From an uncultured Spirochaetota bacterium (GTDB lineage Bacteria > Spirochaetota > Brevinematia > Brevinematales > JAOACQ01), in NCBI GenBank assembly GCA_963835575.1, contig CAWIGG010000002.1:512001-576000 (forward strand): a stretch of DNA of 64,000 nt, given 5' to 3'. Made by a program: the position numbers. Shown in pieces: positions 18,001 through 24,000 of the stretch (its first letter is position 1; every line of letters begins with the position of its first letter).

Positions 18001-21000
18001 TGCCATTTTTGATTTCTTTTATGTCTTATAATATTATCATAAATAAAAACATAACAGGATGTGAGCGTCAATTTGGGAAAGTTTAGAGCGATATTATTAA
18101 ATAATTCTTCCTGTGTGAAGGATGTTTGAAAAGTATTAATGACATCGCGGTTTTTCAATTCAAGCCTTTCTCTCTGGATTCTTTCGGTAATCTGAATACT
18201 GAGCTGAATGTCCTGGATAATATTAAAAGCAGATTGAAAAAGTCGGTCGATTTCCTTTTTCTGCTCAGAAATCTTATTTATATAGCAATAGAGGATATTA
18301 AGGATACCAGGCCAGAATGAAATATTAATTCCCTCTTTCTTCTGGATATTGAGTTTTTTATTAAGCTTTTTTAGAAAAACTGTAATATTATCTTCTGTCA
18401 GATTTTTATCTTCGAGAATAAGAAGCAGGTCATCAAGCAGGTCGCTGACAGAAAATGATTTCGGACCGATAAAATCTGTTAAATCTATAATCTTACGGAT
18501 TTCACTATAGAGTTTTACCCTGTCTGCTTCTTCCCCGCAATGAGATGTTTTTTCTTTTTCATCCGTATTGATGGATCTGAAGATCTCGGCAGAGCTGCTG
18601 AAGCATCCGCAGGAAGAACGGATGAGAAGCGAGGTGGGGAGAATGACTTCCGGCGGGACATCTTTCCCGTTGATAATGTCAAGGGCCAGCTCTACAGCCT
18701 TTTTACCCTGCTGATAGATCGGCTGCTTAATGGTGGTGAGCGGCGGTGATACGATTTCGCAGTCCATAATATTATCGAAACCGATAACAGCCGCTTCATC
18801 CGGCACATCGATGCCGCGGCGGGATAATTCATTAACAGCTTCTATGGCCATAGTGTCGTTCGCGGCGATTAAGCCGTCAAAAAAAGCCTTCCGGTAATCC
18901 AGCAGTTCTTTGACGGCATTGCGTCCTGAGATTTCATCAAAATTACCGGGAACAATAAGATTATCGTCGGCTTTTATTCCATATTTACGCATACTTTCAA
19001 TATAAGCTTTTAACCGGATTTGAGCTTCCTCGTTATTTTCCGGTCCGCTGATAAAGGCTATTTTTTTACGATGGTGCACAGAGACTAAATGTTTAACCGC
19101 CTCTTCAATTCCATTGGAATTATCAACAAGAATGCTGGGAATATTCTTGAGAGGAATTGACAGGCTGATGAGCGGAATGTCCTTGAGATTTTCAATGAAA
19201 GTGTAAAAATTCTCCTTTGTGCTGTAATTGCAGAGCGTTCCGGATGCAATGATCAAAGCATCGAGATAATCGGGGCGCATTAAATCATAAATAACGTTAA
19301 GCTGGTATCCGTAGCTGTAAGGATTATACAGAGCCTCTCCGCGGAATATAATAATATCCGCGTCTTTTTCCTGGGCCATGTCCAGCACGCCCTGCCAGAT
19401 AAGTTTGGGGTATTCTTCATGTAAATTTGTGATCTGCAGGCCAATGGTCGGCCTTCTTTTATTCTGCTTGAACATTTAAATATTTTAACCTCGAATTTTA
19501 TGTATCCGCGGGCTTTTTTTTCTCTTTATTATTATAGAGATCTTTATCAGCCAGAGCGAGAAGCGTTTCAATATCTGTTGATTCCCGGCCGTTGAATTCT
19601 GAAATTCCGAAACTCATGTCAAGAAGATAAGGCAAAGGTTCGTTTTCATTAAATTTCTTAATGTTAAGGTTGATTTTATTCTTGATTTTATCCAGATTTT
19701 CAATAGGAGTGTCCGGCGTTATTATCACAAATTCATCACCGCCGATACGCGATATGATATCTGACTTACGGAATGTTGTCTGCAGTATTTTCACGGCGCT
19801 GCGTAAGGCCCGGTCGCCTTCGCTATGCCCGTATTTGTCATTGATCTTTTTCAGACCGTCCATATCGGCGAAAAAGATAAGGAAATTCCTGCCTGCACGG
19901 AGGGCAAGGTTTTTCTGCTGTTCGGCAAATGTAAAAAACCCCCTTCTGTTGTAAAGGCCTGTTAATTCATCGATGATAGAAAGATTCTCAAGCTTTTTAT
20001 TGGTGTCCTCCAGTACAAGAAGGGTTGATTTGAGCTTTTCTTCAACCTCCAGCCGCTCATGATAAAGAATACTGCTCATGATAACACTGCTGATCTGGGA
20101 GGTCAGGGTTTCAAATATTACATTATTTTTCGGTTCAGACTCATAAACAGCGAAACCGAAGTTTTCTTCCCTGAAAACAAGAGGTTCAATTAGAAAATCC
20201 AGCTTGCCTTTGTTAAAGATTTTGTTGATTTTGGAAAAATCCTCAAAAAAAGTTTTCTGGTAAAATTCCTTCTGCATATTTATCAGATCAAGCTTGACGC
20301 CGTTATGATAAGCCGCGGTCAGGTAAAACTTTTTAGAAAGAAGCTCTTTGCATCTTTTCCCTGCCACCGCCTCTTTATAGATAAACATAAAAAAAGTTTT
20401 GATATTAAGCCTGGGAAGCTCCTGCATAACTATGTCTGCAAGCTTCTGCATATCATAAAGAGTGATGATAGTACCGCTGACGATGCGCAGGGTCTCGGAC
20501 TGTTTTTCCTGCTGGATCATCTTTAATTTTGGAATCCTGTAAGCGAAATGGGCAATAAGAAGAAACGCCGAATCCCAGAGAACTGTCGCGGATTCAATAT
20601 CATCCTTTTCTTCAAGAAATTCATGGGTTTTTGTCCTGAATGATGAAACGACGCCGTGCCAGAATAAAATATTATTATCAGACTCAACGGTCTCATTGAG
20701 TATTAAAGACAAGCTGGGACAAAAACTTTTGGCCGGGTTTCTTTCTTCAATATCTTTAATAAATGCATCAAAAAGCATATTCAGTCTGTTTTCAATATAT
20801 TGTTTGTCTAATGATGTGTTGAATTGGTCAATTATAGAGGTAATTATTTCATTTTTGTGCTGTTTAATCCCGGACAAACCGGAAAAATTGAGATTGTTTT
20901 TTAAATGTTTATGAATAAATTTTGTCTGTGAACAGCCGCAGGATTCCCGCACTATCAGTTCTGAATTGAGTGTCTTTTTAATGGGGATAATTTCTCCCCT

Positions 21001-24000
21001 GAGCGATTTAATCAATATTTCAACCGAGGCATACCCCAGTTGTTTTATGGGTGATTTTATGGTAGTAAGCGAGGGCGATGAAACCGCCGTTTCTTCAATA
21101 TCGTCATATCCGCCTACAGCTATTTTATCGGGTATGGATATTTCCCTTTTTTTCAACTCTGCCATTGCACCCAGGGCCATATTGTCATTAACGCCGATGA
21201 TTGCATCGATTTCCATTTTTTTTTCATCGAGAAGATATTCGACGGCCCTTTTACCGGATTCCGGCATAAGATCGCCGATTATAACCATTTCAGGATCAAA
21301 TTCAATATTATTTTCTTTTAAAGCATCCAGATAGGCACTAAAACGGTCTTTCATTTCCGGCAGACCCAGCGGTCCGCGTATAAAAGCTATCCTTTTTTTA
21401 TGATGGTAATTAATAAAATGATTGACCAGCTGCTTCATGCCTGAATAATTTTCTTCAACAACGGATGTGATATCTTCCATAGGCCTTCCAATACTGATAG
21501 TGGGAATAGGGGAAAAATGAAGATGGAATGATTTAAATTCATCGATACTGATAAAACTTCCCACACAAGTTATAATGATAAGCCCGTCAAAGTAGTCCGT
21601 TTTAATCAGGTTATAAACGGAATTCCTTCTTTTTTCATAAATGTTTACAGGCGAATGTTCCAGCGTACCGCCGCAGATGGCAATAAAATCGATATCATTT
21701 TTCCTGGCGGCTTCCGATGCTCCCTCCCAGATCAGCGTCTGATATTTACCAATGCTGATTATATTGTCAGTTAGAAATCCTATTTTTAGGCGGGGCTTGT
21801 TTCTCAAAGCCATATCAAATATCCTGAAATCATATTTTTGAAAACATTATTTCAATTATTAGTTTAATTGATTTGATAATTTTGTCAAAGGTTTAAATCT
21901 TAAATTAATTTCAGCCTGATATCTGAATAGTGTAAACCTTTTTTTGAGTTTTTGAAAAGAATTTCATATAATATGAAAAAGTTTTAATGATCCGGGGAAA
22001 ATTAAAATGGTTAAAAATAATATCTATCTTATTATCCATGGGCATTTCTACCAGCCGCCGAGGGAAGAGCCGGGCACAGATGAGATAGACCGTCAGCCGT
22101 CCGCTGGGCCTTTTCATGACTGGAATCAAAGGATCAATAAAGAATGCTATGCCGCGAATGCGGCGTCCAGGATCCTGGACAGCTCGGGAAGGATAGAAGA
22201 AATTATTAATAATTATAAGTATATCAGCTTTAACTTCGGGCCGACTTTGATGAAGTGGCTGAAACGGAATGATCCTTTAACATACGGTTTGATTATTGAT
22301 GCTGATAAAGAAAGCAGGACAATTCAGAATAGACATGGGAACGCCATTGCTCAGGTCTATAATCATATTATACTCCCCCTGGCCAATGACAGGGATATTA
22401 TCACGGAAATAGACTGGGGTATCCGTTCGTTTCAAAAGGATTTCGGCAGAGACCCGGAAGGGATCTGGCTTTCAGAAACGGCCATTAATAACCGCGTGGC
22501 AGAGCATTTAATAAGTTTCGGCATTAAATTTGTCATACTTTCCCCCGACCAGGCAGAGGAAACAAAGCAATTCCATGCGCACAATTGGCATTCCGTCACT
22601 CACGGTACAATAGATCCGTCAAAACCATATTTGTTGAATGAACTTAACGGCAGTCTTACAGTCTTTTTCTTAAATCCGGACATTGCACGGAAAATCAGTT
22701 TTGAACATCTTTTAAGAAATGTGGAATATTTAAGGGGTGAAATACTTTCACATAATAAAGCCGAACAGGAAAACATTCTCATCCATACCGCTACTGACGG
22801 CGAATCGTACGGCCATCATGAACCGTTCGGCGATATGTGCCTTGCGCGTCTGATTTATGATAATAAAGCATTGAATGATTTTAAGTTTACAAATTACGGC
22901 CGCTATCTGGAAATGTTCCCGCCGCAGGATTTTGTCCGGCTGAAGGAATTGGGCGAACAAAAGGGATCTTCTTGGAGCTGTCCTCATGGCGTCGGAAGGT
23001 GGTATGAGGACTGCGGCTGTTCGACCGGTGGAAAACCCGGCTGGAACCAGAAATGGAGAACACCCCTCCGCGAAGCATTTGATTTTTTAAGAGATAATCT
23101 ATACGGTGCGGCCGAAGAAAAATTAACTTCCTGCCTGGAAAATTTATGGGAAGCGCGCAATGAATATCACAGGGTTATTTATGCTGATACAGATGAAGAA
23201 AAGAAACAAGCCGCCGCTGTATTTTTAAAAGAACTGACTAAAATGAAACCCGGCAGCCCGGAAGGGATTTTTATTTTGAAAATCATGGAAGCCCTCTATA
23301 ATACGCTTCTTATGTATACCAGCTGCGGCTGGTTTTTTTCAGATATTTCGGGTATTGAGACTGTCCAGAATATGAAATATGCCTTGCAGGTTCTTGATCT
23401 GGCCTGTGATATAATACCTGAAGAAACCAGGGAAAAATTTCTCATTATGCTCGGTATGGCCAGGTCTAATATTCCCGAATTACGGGACGGCAGATGGATT
23501 TTTGAAAACAGAGCCGAAAAAACTTTCTATTATGAAGAACAGGCGGCAATGGAATGTTTGTTAAATGCCGTTTTAACAGGCCGGAAAATAAAGCCTTTGC
23601 AGAAAATGAAAAAGTATTTTTATGAGCTGTATTTTTCTTTTTTTCAGGGAATGATAAAAAAGGGTTTTGAAATTTATAAATCAATAATCGGGATAATCAA
23701 TATCTTTTTATCTGAAGAGAAGAATTATATTATTTATCTTATTAAAAAGGGAAATGAATATCATTTTTTCATCAAGCAAACTGATGATAATTCTCTTATC
23801 GGCTACCTGGACAGAATAATAGAAAAGAAAAACGGCAATGATATTTTAAGATATTTTGCCGATTGGTTCGGGAAAAGCTACACTCTTAAAAATTTTACAC
23901 ATGATGCGAGAGAATATATTCTTAGGAAAATATTTGAAGATGTGATGCTCTGCCTTCATAAAAATAAAGAAAAAGCATTAAACCGGATTGAGGATTATCT

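What a model noticed while it worked through the whole genome (the two positions that open the first line are those of the whole stretch)
19498..21813. Thirty-two paralogous cytoplasmic sugar-sensor modules (LacI-type domain without HTH) wired to six kinds of output
The largest non-mobile, non-ABC protein family of this cellulolytic spirochaete (32 genes; g00434 is the example) joins an N-terminal LacI/PurR-type sugar-binding domain that has no DNA-binding head, an invariant SCGC motif and a conserved ~280-aa helical plus GAF-like module to GGDEF, HD-GYP, histidine-kinase, GerE/sigma-r4 HTH, SpoIIE or MCP outputs. I read them as one-component sensors of imported sugars or cellodextrins that set c-di-GMP level, chemotaxis and transcription from inside the cell. 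New would be a modular cytoplasmic carbohydrate-sensing family and its middle domain, of use as swappable sugar biosensors.
Evidence so far: Calls 59, 154: 32 proteins share the middle module (HMM from the call 105 alignment, E 2e-75 to 2e-6); 25 show PBP + SCGC + module, with outputs GGDEF (11 in all), HD-GYP 4, HATPase/HisKA types 6, GerE or sigma70_r4 5, SpoIIE 1, MCPsignal 1; three genes are split by IS or frameshift. Only one canonical LacI with HTH exists (g00354). Call 60: no signal peptide or membrane segment in four examples. Several lie next to glycoside hydrolases (GH9, GH8, GH43, GH57, GH94; call 59). Call 164: 4th largest family after two transposases and ABC ATPases. Call 104: full-length relatives fill most of the best 150 of 1.84 billion representatives (5411 at E<=1e-30, which includes single-domain hits). 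Calls [...]
(Added by a program. Inside this text positions count along the whole contig: contig position 512,001 is position 1 of the stretch shown here. "Call 12" and the like, gene names such as g00115 and contig names such as C1 are that model's own, and its searches are not shown. The text may have been shortened before it was handed on; [...] marks where a part breaks off. The agent that wrote the report below was given it as the finding of a first reader that could run no searches.)

Follow-up and report, generated by a model that had tools for sequence, protein, structure and literature searches.

The report
Soluble LacI-domain sensor family, many outputs
This spirochaete carries about thirty copies of a soluble signalling protein that joins a LacI-type small-molecule-binding domain, a globin-like domain and a GAF domain to interchangeable outputs; the type is widespread in metagenomes but I found no experimental study of it.

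Summary
Window 19498-21813 (-) encodes a 771-aa soluble protein: an HTH-less LacI-type binding domain, R-x-S-C-G-C, about 300 aa with no Pfam family, then GGDEF. I recovered 31 ORFs (about 30 genes) with the middle module, the same output types, no membrane segments, a single canonical LacI, and rank 4 among paralogue clusters.

New here:
- The middle module is not a new fold. AlphaFold2 (pLDDT 90) gives a non-haem globin-like bundle (RsbR-N, Z 14.4) followed by a GAF domain.
- Two His in the binding domain (H132, H137) are as invariant as the two Cys (128 of 129 representatives that span both sites). They are absent from the genome's canonical LacI. This suggests a His2Cys2 metal site, which is untested.
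- Closely related cassettes carry different outputs.
- The module occurs in 4205 representative clusters and is patchy within the phylum.

The sugar reading stays inferred. The closest folds are AscG, CelR-cellobiose and CcpA. One GerE-type copy heads a run of GH9/GH5/GH10 genes. GH proximity overall is not significant (P 0.16 and 0.09), and orthologues in relatives sit among hydrogenase genes. No ligand was tested.

Verdict: a new variant of a known kind, with moderate interest.

The parts
19498..21813 (-). P0001, the example gene (771 aa): LacI-type binding domain, His/Cys motif, globin-like domain, GAF domain, GGDEF
20941..21789 (-). Residues 9-291: type-I periplasmic-binding-protein fold of the LacI/PurR regulatory-domain type, with no HTH before it
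   Evidence: Pfam. PDB sequence hits: ancestral LacI 6.4e-28 and AscG 5.1e-23. Foldseek TM 0.80-0.86 to LacI ancestors, AscG, CcpA, RbsR; 0.72 to CelR-cellobiose
21403..21420 (-). H132 to H137: two family-invariant histidines at the end of a helix of the binding domain
   Evidence: Invariant in 48 of 48 sequences. Both His present in 28 of 28 G000 copies and 129 of 129 representatives that hold the region. The genome's canonical LacI has Tyr and a gap there
20932..20949 (-). R289-E-S-C292-G-C294 motif, directly after the last strand of the binding domain
   Evidence: R, C and C invariant in 48 of 48. R-x-[ST]-C-G-C present in 134 of the 150 best representatives
20482..20886 (-). Residues ~310-444: non-haem globin-like helical domain (RsbR-N-like fold)
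   Evidence: AF2 pLDDT 90. VIA: 3zta_A Z 14.4, rmsd 2.2 over 129 of 139 residues; 3pmc_B Z 13.2; 2bnl_A Z 9.5. No His or Cys column reaches 30% in this part
19981..20478 (-). Residues ~446-611: GAF fold ending in a 47-residue helix that leads into the output domain
   Evidence: Foldseek matches GAF domains (6ob8, 5w10, 3ci6, PDE5/2/6). VIA: 5w10 Z 12.6, 3trc Z 12.5, 4g3v Z 12.4
19513..19977 (-). Residues 613-767: GGDEF diguanylate cyclase domain, with the GGDEF motif and an RKSD (RxxD) site five residues before it
   Evidence: Pfam E 4e-37; motifs read from the translation
16938..19475 (-). P0002 (845 aa), 22 nt downstream on the same strand: the same cassette with a SpoIIE/PP2C phosphatase output (649-844). 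Probably co-transcribed with P0001
   Evidence: no terminator-like site on the minus strand between the two genes
22007..24490 (+). Divergent neighbour: GH57 + DUF3536 protein (827 aa)
21861..21888 (-). Promoter-like match (TTGACA-16-TAAACT, 10 of 12) upstream of P0001. A pattern match only

Best explanation
These are soluble, presumably dimeric signalling proteins built on one conserved input cassette of about 600 aa.

Proposed mechanism. A LacI/PurR-type Venus-flytrap domain binds a small cytoplasmic metabolite, most likely a sugar, an oligosaccharide or a derivative. The cassette's tail (R-x-S-C-G-C) is probably pinned to two invariant His. It is followed by a non-haem globin-like domain and a GAF domain. 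Two helices of about 48 residues, one linking the globin-like and GAF parts and one leaving the GAF domain, connect the cassette to whatever output follows: GGDEF, HD-GYP, histidine kinase, PAS-GerE, PP2C or MCP. Ligand occupancy would then set c-di-GMP synthesis or breakdown, phosphorelay, chemotaxis or transcription from inside the cell. For P0001 the output would be c-di-GMP synthesis with product inhibition at its RxxD site. P0002, probably co-transcribed, would be a PP2C phosphatase under a different cassette.

Shown: the domain order, solubility, conservation, predicted folds and exchange of outputs.

Inferred: the dimer, the identity of the ligand, binding at the cleft and the route of transmission.
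For: - The N-terminal domain is a bona fide LacI-family regulatory domain by sequence and by predicted fold. Its best structural neighbours are sugar-binding regulators: LacI ancestor with D-fucose, AscG, the CelR-cellobiose complex, RbsR with ribose, and CcpA.
- R157, N209, D210 and D237 are kept in at least 90% of 48 sequences. They are shared with the genome's canonical LacI. From recalled knowledge they correspond to the ligand-contacting Arg/Asn/Asp of LacI; I did not test that mapping.
- No membrane segment or signal peptide in 31 of 31 ORFs.
- The cassette stays constant while the outputs vary. In G000. In 50 sampled representatives, 44 show Peripla_BP_3, with outputs HK, GGDEF, MCP, SpoIIE, GerE, AraC HTH, sigma-54 AAA+ and STAS.
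- In the cassette tree, sister pairs differ in output: L012 GGDEF / L019 PP2C (100/99), L005 GerE / L009 GGDEF (100/100), L010 HK / L023 GerE (94/92). Starred branches force at least 5 changes for GGDEF.
- Long helices flank the GAF core: H117-164 and H278-324 of the module model.
- Context. The GerE-type L005 lies directly upstream, on the same strand, of a run of GH9/GH5/GH10 matches at C2:193-237 kb. L003 precedes a GH8 gene, as its relative does in G001. L009 and L006 precede GH94-type genes. L026 lies next to GH43 and L015 next to GH31. P0001 faces a GH57 gene.
- The genome has a single LacI with an HTH against 30 HTH-less copies.
Against: - No ligand or binding test exists.
- GH proximity is not significant when the sensor ORFs are relocated at random: 7 of 46 GH genes within 5 kb (mean 3.9, P 0.16) and 13 of 46 within 10 kb (mean 6.8, P 0.09). 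Some of the seven families were chosen after I had seen them as neighbours.
- None of the 111 flanking ORFs is a sugar ABC component. Most neighbours are unrelated to carbohydrates.
- In G002 the closest GerE-type relative starts 10 nt inside a NiFe-hydrogenase-like gene and precedes Nfn-like and FeFe-hydrogenase genes. G004 shows the same series of ORF lengths (not run through Pfam), and G001 has a NiFe-hydrogenase-like gene upstream.
- LacI-family domains also bind purines, nucleosides and sugar phosphates (family knowledge).
- The output leaves from the C-terminal end of the binding domain. In LacI/PurR this lies in the subdomain that moves least (recalled), so how cleft closure would be transmitted is unclear.
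- The cassette has two further potential ligand-binding domains (globin-like and GAF) and an invariant His/Cys set, any of which could be the real input.
Confidence: 0.5

Rival explanations
1. Redox or metal sensing. The invariant His132/His137/Cys292/Cys294 set binds a redox-active centre (Fe or Fe-S), or forms a reversible Cys-Gly-Cys disulfide. That centre, not the sugar cleft, would be the primary input. A purely structural Zn site built from the same residues would fit the best explanation and is not this rival.
For: - The four residues are invariant in 48 of 48 sequences and in 128 of the 129 representatives that span both sites.
- Both His and both Cys are missing from the genome's canonical LacI.
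- In G002 (and, by the same ORF series, G004) the related gene is embedded among hydrogenase and Nfn-like redox genes; G001 has a NiFe-hydrogenase-like gene upstream.
- In the AF2 model of residues 1-452, residues 291-300 have a mean pLDDT of 76, against 51 when the module is folded alone. The tail may therefore pack on the binding domain.
Against: - The tools give no coordinates, so I never measured how close the four residues are to each other.
- No metal was tested.
- A His2Cys2 set is just as typical of a structural Zn site.
- From recall, the first His position is often His in ordinary LacI proteins.
- The ligand-cleft residues are conserved as well, which would be unexpected for an unused cleft.
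Confidence: 0.15
2. The LacI-type domain is only a dimerisation scaffold. The signal is sensed by the globin-like domain (for example a fatty acid, as proposed for RsbR-type globins) or by the GAF domain (for example a cyclic nucleotide).
For: - Both folds are established ligand-binding sensor modules. The top structural neighbours include Lcd1 GAF with cAMP (5w10) and the pXO2-61 sensor domain (3pmc).
- According to passages of PMC8717448, RsbR-type globins potentially bind a fatty acid through a conserved Arg. An Arg at P0001 position 393 is kept in 65% of 52 sequences.
- These domains sit nearer to the output than the binding domain does.
Against: - Conservation within the globin-like and GAF parts is low and mostly hydrophobic. 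Only G553 is invariant, and no polar pocket residue is conserved.
- The binding domain keeps its cleft residues.
- Module and binding domain nearly always occur together: 44 of 50 sampled representatives.
Confidence: 0.15
3. The cleft binds non-sugar metabolites, such as purines or nucleosides (as in PurR and CytR), or glycolytic sugar phosphates (as CcpA and Cra respond to). The family would then report general metabolic state rather than imported cellodextrins.
For: - The best NCBIfam matches are CytR, a generic LacI subfamily, RbsR and PurR, all far below their cut-offs.
- Most flanking genes are not carbohydrate-related, and GH proximity is not significant.
- Hydrogenase and fermentation genes surround the related gene in genomes of the same genus.
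Against: - The closest solved relatives by sequence and by fold are beta-glucoside, cellobiose, galactoside and ribose regulators.
- Several copies directly flank GH9, GH8, GH94, GH43, GH31 or GH57 genes.
Confidence: 0.2

Closest known systems
LacI/GalR-family repressors (LacI, PurR, CcpA, AscG, CelR, RbsR)
   Same: The regulatory domain is homologous: PDB sequence hits reach E 6.4e-28 and Foldseek TM is 0.80-0.86 for LacI ancestors, AscG, CcpA and RbsR and 0.72 for CelR. The chain ends with the family's 'ELIVRxS' strand and keeps the Arg/Asn-Asp/Asp cleft residues. Both are cytoplasmic.
   Different: There is no N-terminal HTH. The output is attached at the C-terminus instead. The family adds His-x4-His and C-G-C signatures that the genome's canonical LacI lacks. 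About 300 aa of globin-like and GAF domains follow, then an enzymatic, kinase, MCP or GerE output.
RsbR-type non-haem globin sensor domains (stressosome RsbR N-domain, pXO2-61)
   Same: The predicted fold of residues ~310-444 matches 3zta_A at Z 14.4 (rmsd 2.2, 129 of 139 residues), 3pmc_B at Z 13.2 and 2bnl_A at Z 9.5. No conserved His is available for haem. Its last helix runs on into the next domain.
   Different: There is no detectable sequence relationship: 0 Pfam families, and only 3 of 52 members show a weak match (E 0.17 at best) to another globin model, HisK-N-like. The domain is followed by GAF rather than STAS and preceded by a LacI-type domain. Phycobiliprotein and photocobilin globins score nearly as well (Z ~12), so the subtype is open.
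GAF-regulated c-di-GMP and cyclic-nucleotide enzymes (Lcd1 GAF-GGDEF, PDE2/5/6, GAF-HD-GYP 4mcw)
   Same: A GAF fold followed by a long helix leads into a catalytic domain.
   Different: The GAF domain here is too divergent for Pfam: only 2 of 52 members match, weakly. No conserved polar pocket is seen. It is always preceded by the binding-domain/globin-like pair.
Membrane sensors with periplasmic binding-protein domains (the Bacteroides hybrid two-component fructose sensor, BvgS-type kinases; both recalled) and solute-binding-protein-dependent receptors
   Same: A Venus-flytrap binding domain serves as the input of kinases, cyclases and chemoreceptors.
   Different: Those sensors are periplasmic with transmembrane segments. 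The passages I read of PMC8050422 describe signal-transduction receptors as typically transmembrane proteins with an extracytoplasmic ligand-binding domain and did not mention the LacI type. This family has no membrane segment and uses the LacI-type cytoplasmic lineage of the fold.
'Periplas_BP' domains on GGDEF/EAL/HD-GYP proteins, as listed in the 2022 census of c-di-GMP sensory domains (PMC8846402)
   Same: This is the same domain association. The passages read list the domain among those without experimentally validated roles and suggest it may bind solutes, including sugars.
   Different: Those passages do not mention the globin-like/GAF module, the His/Cys signature, the cytoplasmic location or the range of outputs beyond c-di-GMP enzymes.

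Membership tests
LacI/GalR transcription factor family | N-terminal LacI-type helix-turn-helix (PF00356) | tested here: not met
   P0001 and 30 paralogues have no PF00356 match. The genome has exactly one match, at C2:428006-428137. The proteins begin directly with the first strand of the binding domain.
LacI/GalR transcription factor family | Type-I binding-protein regulatory domain of the LacI lineage | tested here: met
   Peripla_BP_3 and Peripla_BP_1 matches. PDB sequence hits to LacI, AscG, PurR and CcpA. Foldseek TM 0.80-0.86.
LacI/GalR transcription factor family | Conserved ligand-cleft Arg, Asn-Asp and Asp | tested here: inconclusive
   R157, N209, D210 and D237 are at least 90% conserved in 48 sequences and are shared with the canonical LacI of the genome. 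Their equivalence to the LacI ligand contacts is recalled and was not mapped on a structure.
GAF domain superfamily | GAF fold: a beta-sheet backed by helices, between N- and C-terminal helices | tested here: met
   On a model with pLDDT 90: Foldseek matches GAF domains at E 1.6e-4 to 5e-2; VIA gives Z 12.6, 12.5 and 12.4 for 5w10, 3trc and 4g3v.
GAF domain superfamily | Sequence match to the Pfam GAF models | tested here: not met
   0 families for P0001 residues 287-611. GAF_2 matches 1 of 52 members (E 0.003) and GAF matches 1 of 52 (E 0.028).
RsbR-type non-haem globins | Globin-like helical fold without a haem-binding His | tested here: met
   VIA: 3zta_A Z 14.4, 3pmc_B Z 13.2, 2bnl_A Z 9.5. 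No column has His at 30% or more in that part. The tool warns that helical bundles can reach Z 13-14 by common arrangement alone.
RsbR-type non-haem globins | Sequence or profile relationship to RsbR N-domains; conserved ligand Arg | tested here: inconclusive
   No RsbR Pfam model is among the 25 families listed of the 46 matched at E<=1. An Arg (position 393) is kept in 65% of 52 sequences, but its structural equivalence is unknown. No profile-profile comparison was possible.
GGDEF diguanylate cyclases (P0001) | GGDEF catalytic motif and RxxD inhibitory site | tested here: met
   PF00990 E 4e-37. The stretch 'RKSD-IISRI-GGDEF' is read from the translation. Activity was not tested.
Transmembrane binding-protein-domain sensors (hybrid two-component or BvgS type) | Signal peptide or membrane segments that place the binding domain outside the cytoplasm | tested here: not met
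   The highest 19-residue hydropathy mean is 1.87. The N-termini are short, basic and run straight into the first strand, in 31 of 31 ORFs. This is a crude scan; no dedicated predictor was available.

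The most novel reading that the evidence does not exclude
The cassette is a three-input coincidence sensor whose hallmark is a previously unnoticed His2Cys2 centre. 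That centre would clamp the tail of a LacI-type flytrap to its own C-subdomain. Metabolite binding at the cleft and the redox or metal state of this centre would then be integrated, through a non-haem globin and a GAF domain, into c-di-GMP, phosphorelay, chemotaxis and transcription. In this lineage the cassette has largely replaced classical LacI repressors (30 HTH-less copies against 1 canonical LacI). One member would be the master regulator at the head of the main cellulase gene run.
Probability: 0.25. Interest if true: 0.75.

Novelty: new variant of a known kind. Interest (0 to 1): 0.55.

Why it matters
- The work defines a conserved, portable cytoplasmic input cassette of about 600 aa that nature has joined to at least ten kinds of output. 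That makes it a natural chassis for small-molecule biosensors, if the ligands can be found.
- It gives a concrete candidate for how a cellulolytic spirochaete with a single LacI repressor and few SBP_bac_1 matches (6) could couple carbohydrate status to c-di-GMP, motility and cellulase expression.
- The invariant His/Cys signature is a cheap, testable handle (metal analysis, four point mutants).
- It also fills a gap named in the 2022 census of c-di-GMP sensory domains, which lists LacI-type domains on GGDEF, EAL and HD-GYP proteins as having no validated role.

Tried and rejected
- Complex prediction with two copies of residues 1-452 plus two Zn returned no verdict (score 0.01, mark 0.42). 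No interface or contacts were given. This is neither support for nor evidence against a dimer or a Zn site.
- The search for related loci in genome contigs failed with A2 and with A3, because neither alignment has a sufficiently conserved stretch. The range outside the phylum is therefore unknown.
- The search for homologous proteins gave only 4 proteins with the module region and 5 with the A2 profile in 'longer' mode. The word index is too insensitive for this family.
- The listing of cluster members gave no organism names.
- The ESM Atlas gave only leads: unnamed clusters at 0.90-0.91 and GAF clusters at 0.85-0.88.
- The A1 profile against PDB sequences found nothing below E 0.048.
- The look-up of sequencing runs listed no RNA holder.
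- Seven paper searches found no experimental study of this architecture: LacI/GGDEF/periplasmic binding protein/cytoplasmic; Peripla_BP_3 + GGDEF (0 papers); spirochete/cellulolytic/diguanylate cyclase/sugar-binding; Peripla_BP + histidine kinase + sensor domain; LacI/lacking/DNA-binding domain/diguanylate cyclase/sugar-binding domain; non-heme globin/GAF/periplasmic binding; LacI-like + GGDEF. The library holds only open-access papers and preprints.
- I considered and rejected a new fold for the middle module, haem binding and membrane anchoring.
- I did not map pocket residues or measure their variability, and I could not measure distances in the AF2 models, because no coordinates are returned.

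Full report
THE GENE AND ITS SURROUNDINGS

Window 19498-21813 (-) is an intact 771-aa ORF, P0001. Pfam finds Peripla_BP_3 (130-292, E 9.8e-26), Peripla_BP_1 (28-269) and GGDEF (613-767, E 4e-37). It finds no LacI HTH, and nothing between residues 293 and 612. Residues 287-611 scanned alone give 0 families even at E<=1. The translation shows ELIVRESCGC at 285-294. It also shows 'RKSD-IISRI-GGDEF', that is, an intact catalytic motif with an RxxD site five residues before it.

Twenty-two nucleotides downstream on the same strand lies P0002 (16938-19475, 845 aa). It has the same N-terminal 600 aa and a SpoIIE/PP2C output. A promoter-like match lies upstream of P0001. Terminator-like matches follow P0002, and no terminator-like site lies on the minus strand between the two genes. 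These are pattern matches only. The divergent neighbour is a GH57 + DUF3536 protein.

FAMILY CENSUS

I laid the genome (7 contigs, 4.39 Mb) and called 5609 crude ORFs of at least 100 aa. jackhmmer with residues 296-600 converged on 31 ORFs. An independent six-frame search with the module profile A1 also gave 31 matches. L029 and L031 are the two halves of one gene, split by a repeated element present in 17 copies (median identity 98%).

Pfam on all the ORFs gives these outputs:
- GGDEF alone: 10 ORFs.
- HisKA-HATPase-REC-GGDEF: 2.
- HD_5 (HD-GYP): 4.
- Other HATPase kinases: 5.
- GerE: 5, four of them with PAS.
- SpoIIE: 1. MCPsignal: 1.
- No output on the ORF: 3 (L017, L022, L031).

Several copies are damaged:
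- L022 is followed by an overlapping HD_5 fragment, so it is frameshifted.
- L014 and L030 are preceded by separate binding-domain fragments. The L030 match carries one TAA.
- L006 lacks most of its binding domain.

No ORF has a membrane segment or signal peptide by a hydropathy scan (highest 19-residue mean 1.87). The genome has one LacI HTH. Of its 31 Peripla_BP_3 matches, 30 belong to this family.

In an all-against-all BLAST clustering (at least 60% coverage of both partners) the family is the fourth largest cluster, with 29 members. It ranks behind a DDE transposase (46), ABC ATPases (37) and a Mutator transposase (34).

THE MIDDLE MODULE

The module profile has no relative among PDB sequences (best E 0.048).

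I folded P0001 residues 287-611 with AlphaFold2, using an alignment of 52 modules from G000 and eleven related genomes (A2). The model has mean pLDDT 90.2. Foldseek against the PDB returns GAF domains only: dual-sensor kinase 6ob8/6oap (E 1.6e-4), Lcd1 GAF with cAMP, PtsP GAF, PDE5/2/6 and CodY.

VIA-align against 48,161 representative chains splits the model in two:
- Model residues 24-158 (P0001 ~310-444) match the non-haem globin of the stressosome protein RsbR (3zta_A: Z 14.4, rmsd 2.2 Å, 129 of 139 residues). They also match pXO2-61 (Z 13.2), phycobiliprotein and photocobilin globins (Z about 12), a globin-coupled kinase sensor (5ohe, Z 10.0) and B. subtilis RsbR-N (2bnl, Z 9.5).
- Model residues ~144-325 match GAF domains (5w10 Z 12.6, 3trc Z 12.5, 4g3v Z 12.4).

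The tool warns that helical bundles can reach Z 13-14 without being related. The top match covers almost the whole target at low rmsd, so I accept the fold and leave the subtype open. No column of the globin-like part has His or Cys at 30% or more, so haem or bilin attachment is unlikely.

The module is therefore a divergent non-haem globin-like domain plus a GAF domain, joined and followed by helices of about 48 residues. It is not a new fold. Pfam (2025 copy) does not model it.

THE HIS/CYS SIGNATURE

I aligned residues 1-452 from 48 full cassettes, 23 from G000 and 25 from relatives (A3). The invariant columns are H132, H137, R289, C292, G293 and C294.

Read across all sequences with a profile alignment:
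- Both His are present in 28 of 28 G000 ORFs that hold the region.
- Both Cys are present in 28 of 29. L021 has C-S-C and L022 has C-S-Y.
- Among the 150 best representatives, 128 have His-His and Cys-Cys, 1 has His-His and Cys-Tyr, 13 lack the His region but keep both Cys, and 8 lack both regions.

The genome's own canonical LacI has Tyr and a gap at the two His positions and ends ...ELIVRKSA, with no Cys pair. Four family-specific invariant metal-ligand residues suggest a His2Cys2 site that ties the tail of the binding domain to a helix end of its C-subdomain.

This is an inference. The tools return no coordinates, so I could not measure distances. The only structural hint is pLDDT: residues 291-300 have a mean of 76 when the binding domain is present, against about 51 when the module is folded alone.

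THE BINDING DOMAIN

By sequence its best solved relatives are a reconstructed LacI ancestor (6.4e-28), AscG (5.1e-23), a LacI-family regulator 5ysz, PurR, CcpA and LacI.

The AF2 model of residues 1-452 (pLDDT 91.5, pTM 0.88) superposes on LacI ancestors with D-fucose, AscG, CcpA and RbsR with ribose at TM 0.80-0.86 normalised by target, and on the CelR-cellobiose complex at 0.72. No PDB entry among the listed matches extends into the globin-like part.

R157, N209, D210 and D237 are at least 90% conserved and are shared with the canonical LacI. From recalled knowledge these are the positions of the ligand-contacting Arg, Asn and Asp of LacI. I did not verify that mapping.

DISTRIBUTION

The module profile finds 4205 representatives (50%-identity clusters) at E<=1e-3, of which 3044 are at E<=1e-10 and 1308 at E<=1e-30, among 1.84 billion. 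In nearly all of the best 150 the module begins near residue 300-350. R-x-[ST]-C-G-C is present in 134 of the 150.

I ran Pfam on every third of them (50 proteins). Peripla_BP_3 appears in 44. The outputs are HisKA/HATPase (with or without REC), GGDEF, MCPsignal, SpoIIE, GerE, AraC-type HTH_18, sigma-54 AAA+ and STAS, often with extra PAS or GAF domains.

Among genomes:
- Ten of 11 genomes of the same family have the module, with 3 to 20 matches. The one without is 57% complete.
- None of 19 genomes from five other families of the order has it.
- Across the phylum, 18 of 151 sampled genomes have it, in a few families only. In that run at most 16 candidates were scored per genome.
- G000's 31 matches are the most seen.

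Source annotations are generic, such as 'diguanylate cyclase' or 'GAF domain-containing protein/DNA-binding LacI/PurR family transcriptional regulator'.

MODULARITY

I built a maximum-likelihood tree of 25 full G000 cassettes, taking the sequence up to the end of the module. L006 and L014 were left out as truncated, and L028-L031 as partial.

Sister pairs carry different outputs:
- L012 GGDEF with L019 PP2C (support 100/99).
- L005 PAS-GerE with L009 GGDEF (100/100).
- L010 kinase with L023 GerE (94/92).
- L004 GGDEF with L017, which has no output (100/100).

Starred branches force at least 5 changes of the GGDEF label. The five HD-GYP copies form one clade (94/91). All labels together need 13 changes, against a mean of 17.0 when labels are shuffled (0 of 200 shuffles as low). 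Outputs are therefore partly inherited and partly swapped. P0001 and its neighbour P0002 are not sisters.

GENOMIC CONTEXT AND THE SUGAR READING

I examined two ORFs on each side of the 28 loci, 111 ORFs in all. Carbohydrate-related neighbours are:
- L005: a CBM_4_9 protein and two GH9-CBM enzymes.
- L003: GH8.
- L009: a GH94-type enzyme.
- L006: a 1934-aa GH94-supersandwich protein.
- L026: GH43 and an MFS transporter.
- L015: GH31.
- P0001/P0002: GH57.
- L028: CBM_4_9.
- L017: a CBM_3 protein.
- L023: a polysaccharide deacetylase.

None of the 111 ORFs is a sugar ABC component. The other flanking genes are unrelated to carbohydrates.

Whole-genome searches show that L005 lies immediately upstream, on the same strand, of a run of GH9, GH5 and GH10 matches from C2:193185 to 236845. 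All four GH94 matches lie within 10 kb of a family member.

A relocation test on seven GH families (46 genes) is not significant:
- Within 5 kb: 7 of 46 genes, against a mean of 3.9 (P 0.16).
- Within 10 kb: 13 of 46 genes, against a mean of 6.8 (P 0.09).
- At the level of ORFs: 6 of 31 sensor ORFs have a GH gene near, against a mean of 2.8 (P 0.06).

Some of the seven families were chosen after I had seen them as neighbours, which favours the hypothesis.

In G002 the closest GerE-type relative starts 10 nt inside a NiFe-hydrogenase-like gene. It precedes Nfn-like and FeFe-hydrogenase genes. G004 shows the same series of ORF lengths, which I did not run through Pfam. In G001 a NiFe-hydrogenase-like gene lies upstream and a GH8 gene downstream. 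In G008 the context differs again.

Context therefore supports a link to carbon and energy metabolism. It suggests that individual GerE-type members regulate adjacent glycoside hydrolase genes. It does not establish sugars as the ligands.

MECHANISM

Shown:
- The domain order and solubility.
- The conserved cleft residues and the invariant His/Cys set.
- The predicted folds and the long connecting helices.
- The diversity and exchange of outputs.
- The intact GGDEF and RxxD motifs in P0001.

Inferred:
- The proteins are dimers, as LacI cores, GAF-linked enzymes, GGDEF cyclases and histidine kinases are.
- A metabolite binds in the flytrap cleft.
- The change passes through the globin-like/GAF spine and the final helix to the output.

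One open problem is that the chain leaves the binding domain from the subdomain that moves least in LacI/PurR (recalled). The globin-like domain, which the two-domain model (pTM 0.88) places in a defined position, may read the cleft state by contact. I could not inspect this.

LITERATURE

- Passages of a 2022 census of c-di-GMP sensory domains (PMC8846402) list the LacI-type 'Periplas_BP' domain among putative sensory domains without experimentally validated roles. They say it may bind solutes, including sugars.
- In a 2021 review of solute-binding proteins in signalling (PMC8050422, passages), the passages read describe signal-transduction receptors as typically transmembrane with an extracytoplasmic ligand-binding domain. 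'LacI' does not occur in its text.
- The photoglobin paper (PMC8717448, passages) states that RsbR globins and phycobiliproteins were the two known non-haem globin families, to which it adds photoglobin as a third. It says RsbR-type globins potentially bind a fatty acid through a conserved Arg. It mentions no LacI-type partner: 'LacI' occurs 0 times and 'Peripla' once, in a passage that speaks generally of sensor domains as often periplasmic.
- Seven searches found no study of this architecture. Subscription journals are not covered.

VERDICT

The family is a distinct, widespread and, as far as I could find, uncharacterised variant of cytoplasmic sensor proteins. Its input cassette is now resolved into three known folds plus a new His/Cys signature. 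The carbohydrate reading is the best available but is unproven. I rate the novelty as a new variant of a known kind, and the interest at 0.55.

Noticed in passing
L062 (G000:C2:184155-198662) and onward to about C2:237000: Pfam matches to GH9 (6), GH5 (7) and GH10 (2) run on the + strand from C2:193185 to 236845. The GerE-type family member L005 (C2:190155-192662, +) and a CBM_4_9 protein lie at the head of the run.
   Followed up: partly
L091 (G002:C2:591000-609000); also L090 and L092: In G002 the closest GerE-type relative overlaps the end of a NiFe-hydrogenase-like gene set (Fer4_22, NAD_binding_1, Oxidored_q6, NiFeSe_Hases). It is followed by Nfn-like and HydABC-type FeFe-hydrogenase genes. 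L090 (G004) shows the same series of ORF lengths, and L092 (G001) has a NiFe-hydrogenase-like gene upstream.
   Followed up: partly
window 10918-16593 (+): An 1891-aa ORF directly downstream of P0002's end has no Pfam family at E<=1e-5. A 1194-aa ORF without a family also flanks L025.
   Followed up: no
window 5710-8373 (+): An SBP_bac_1 solute-binding protein (5710-6972) is followed, with no gap, by a 466-aa GGDEF protein (6973-8373). A dCache-MCP lies on the opposite strand at 8362-10326. This may be a binding-protein-dependent cyclase pair.
   Followed up: no
window 25166-26455 (-); L063:5229-5894; L076:8782-10062: CsgG-like lipoprotein genes lie within about 3.4 kb of three family loci: P0001/P0002, L016 and L008. 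The copy beside L008 also has a PEGA domain.
   Followed up: no
L070:7231-8538 (G000:C2, about 1733500-1734830): A repeated element of about 1.3 kb, with long ORFs on both strands and no Pfam family on the one tested, splits the L029/L031 gene. It occurs in 17 copies with median identity 98%. A group II intron reverse transcriptase lies nearby.
   Followed up: partly
window 2836-3789 (+) and 31576-33660 (+): The window holds further signalling genes: a 317-aa HD-GYP protein and a 694-aa GAF-SpoIIE phosphatase with a canonical (Pfam-detectable) GAF domain.
   Followed up: no
window 35576-38786 (+): A 751-aa fusion of an ATP-grasp ligase (LAL_C2) with an FMN-dependent dehydrogenase domain is followed by a radical SAM protein.
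   Followed up: no
G000 genome-wide: Only 6 SBP_bac_1 matches occur in the whole genome. One of them lies next to the single canonical LacI, at C2:429344.
   Followed up: no
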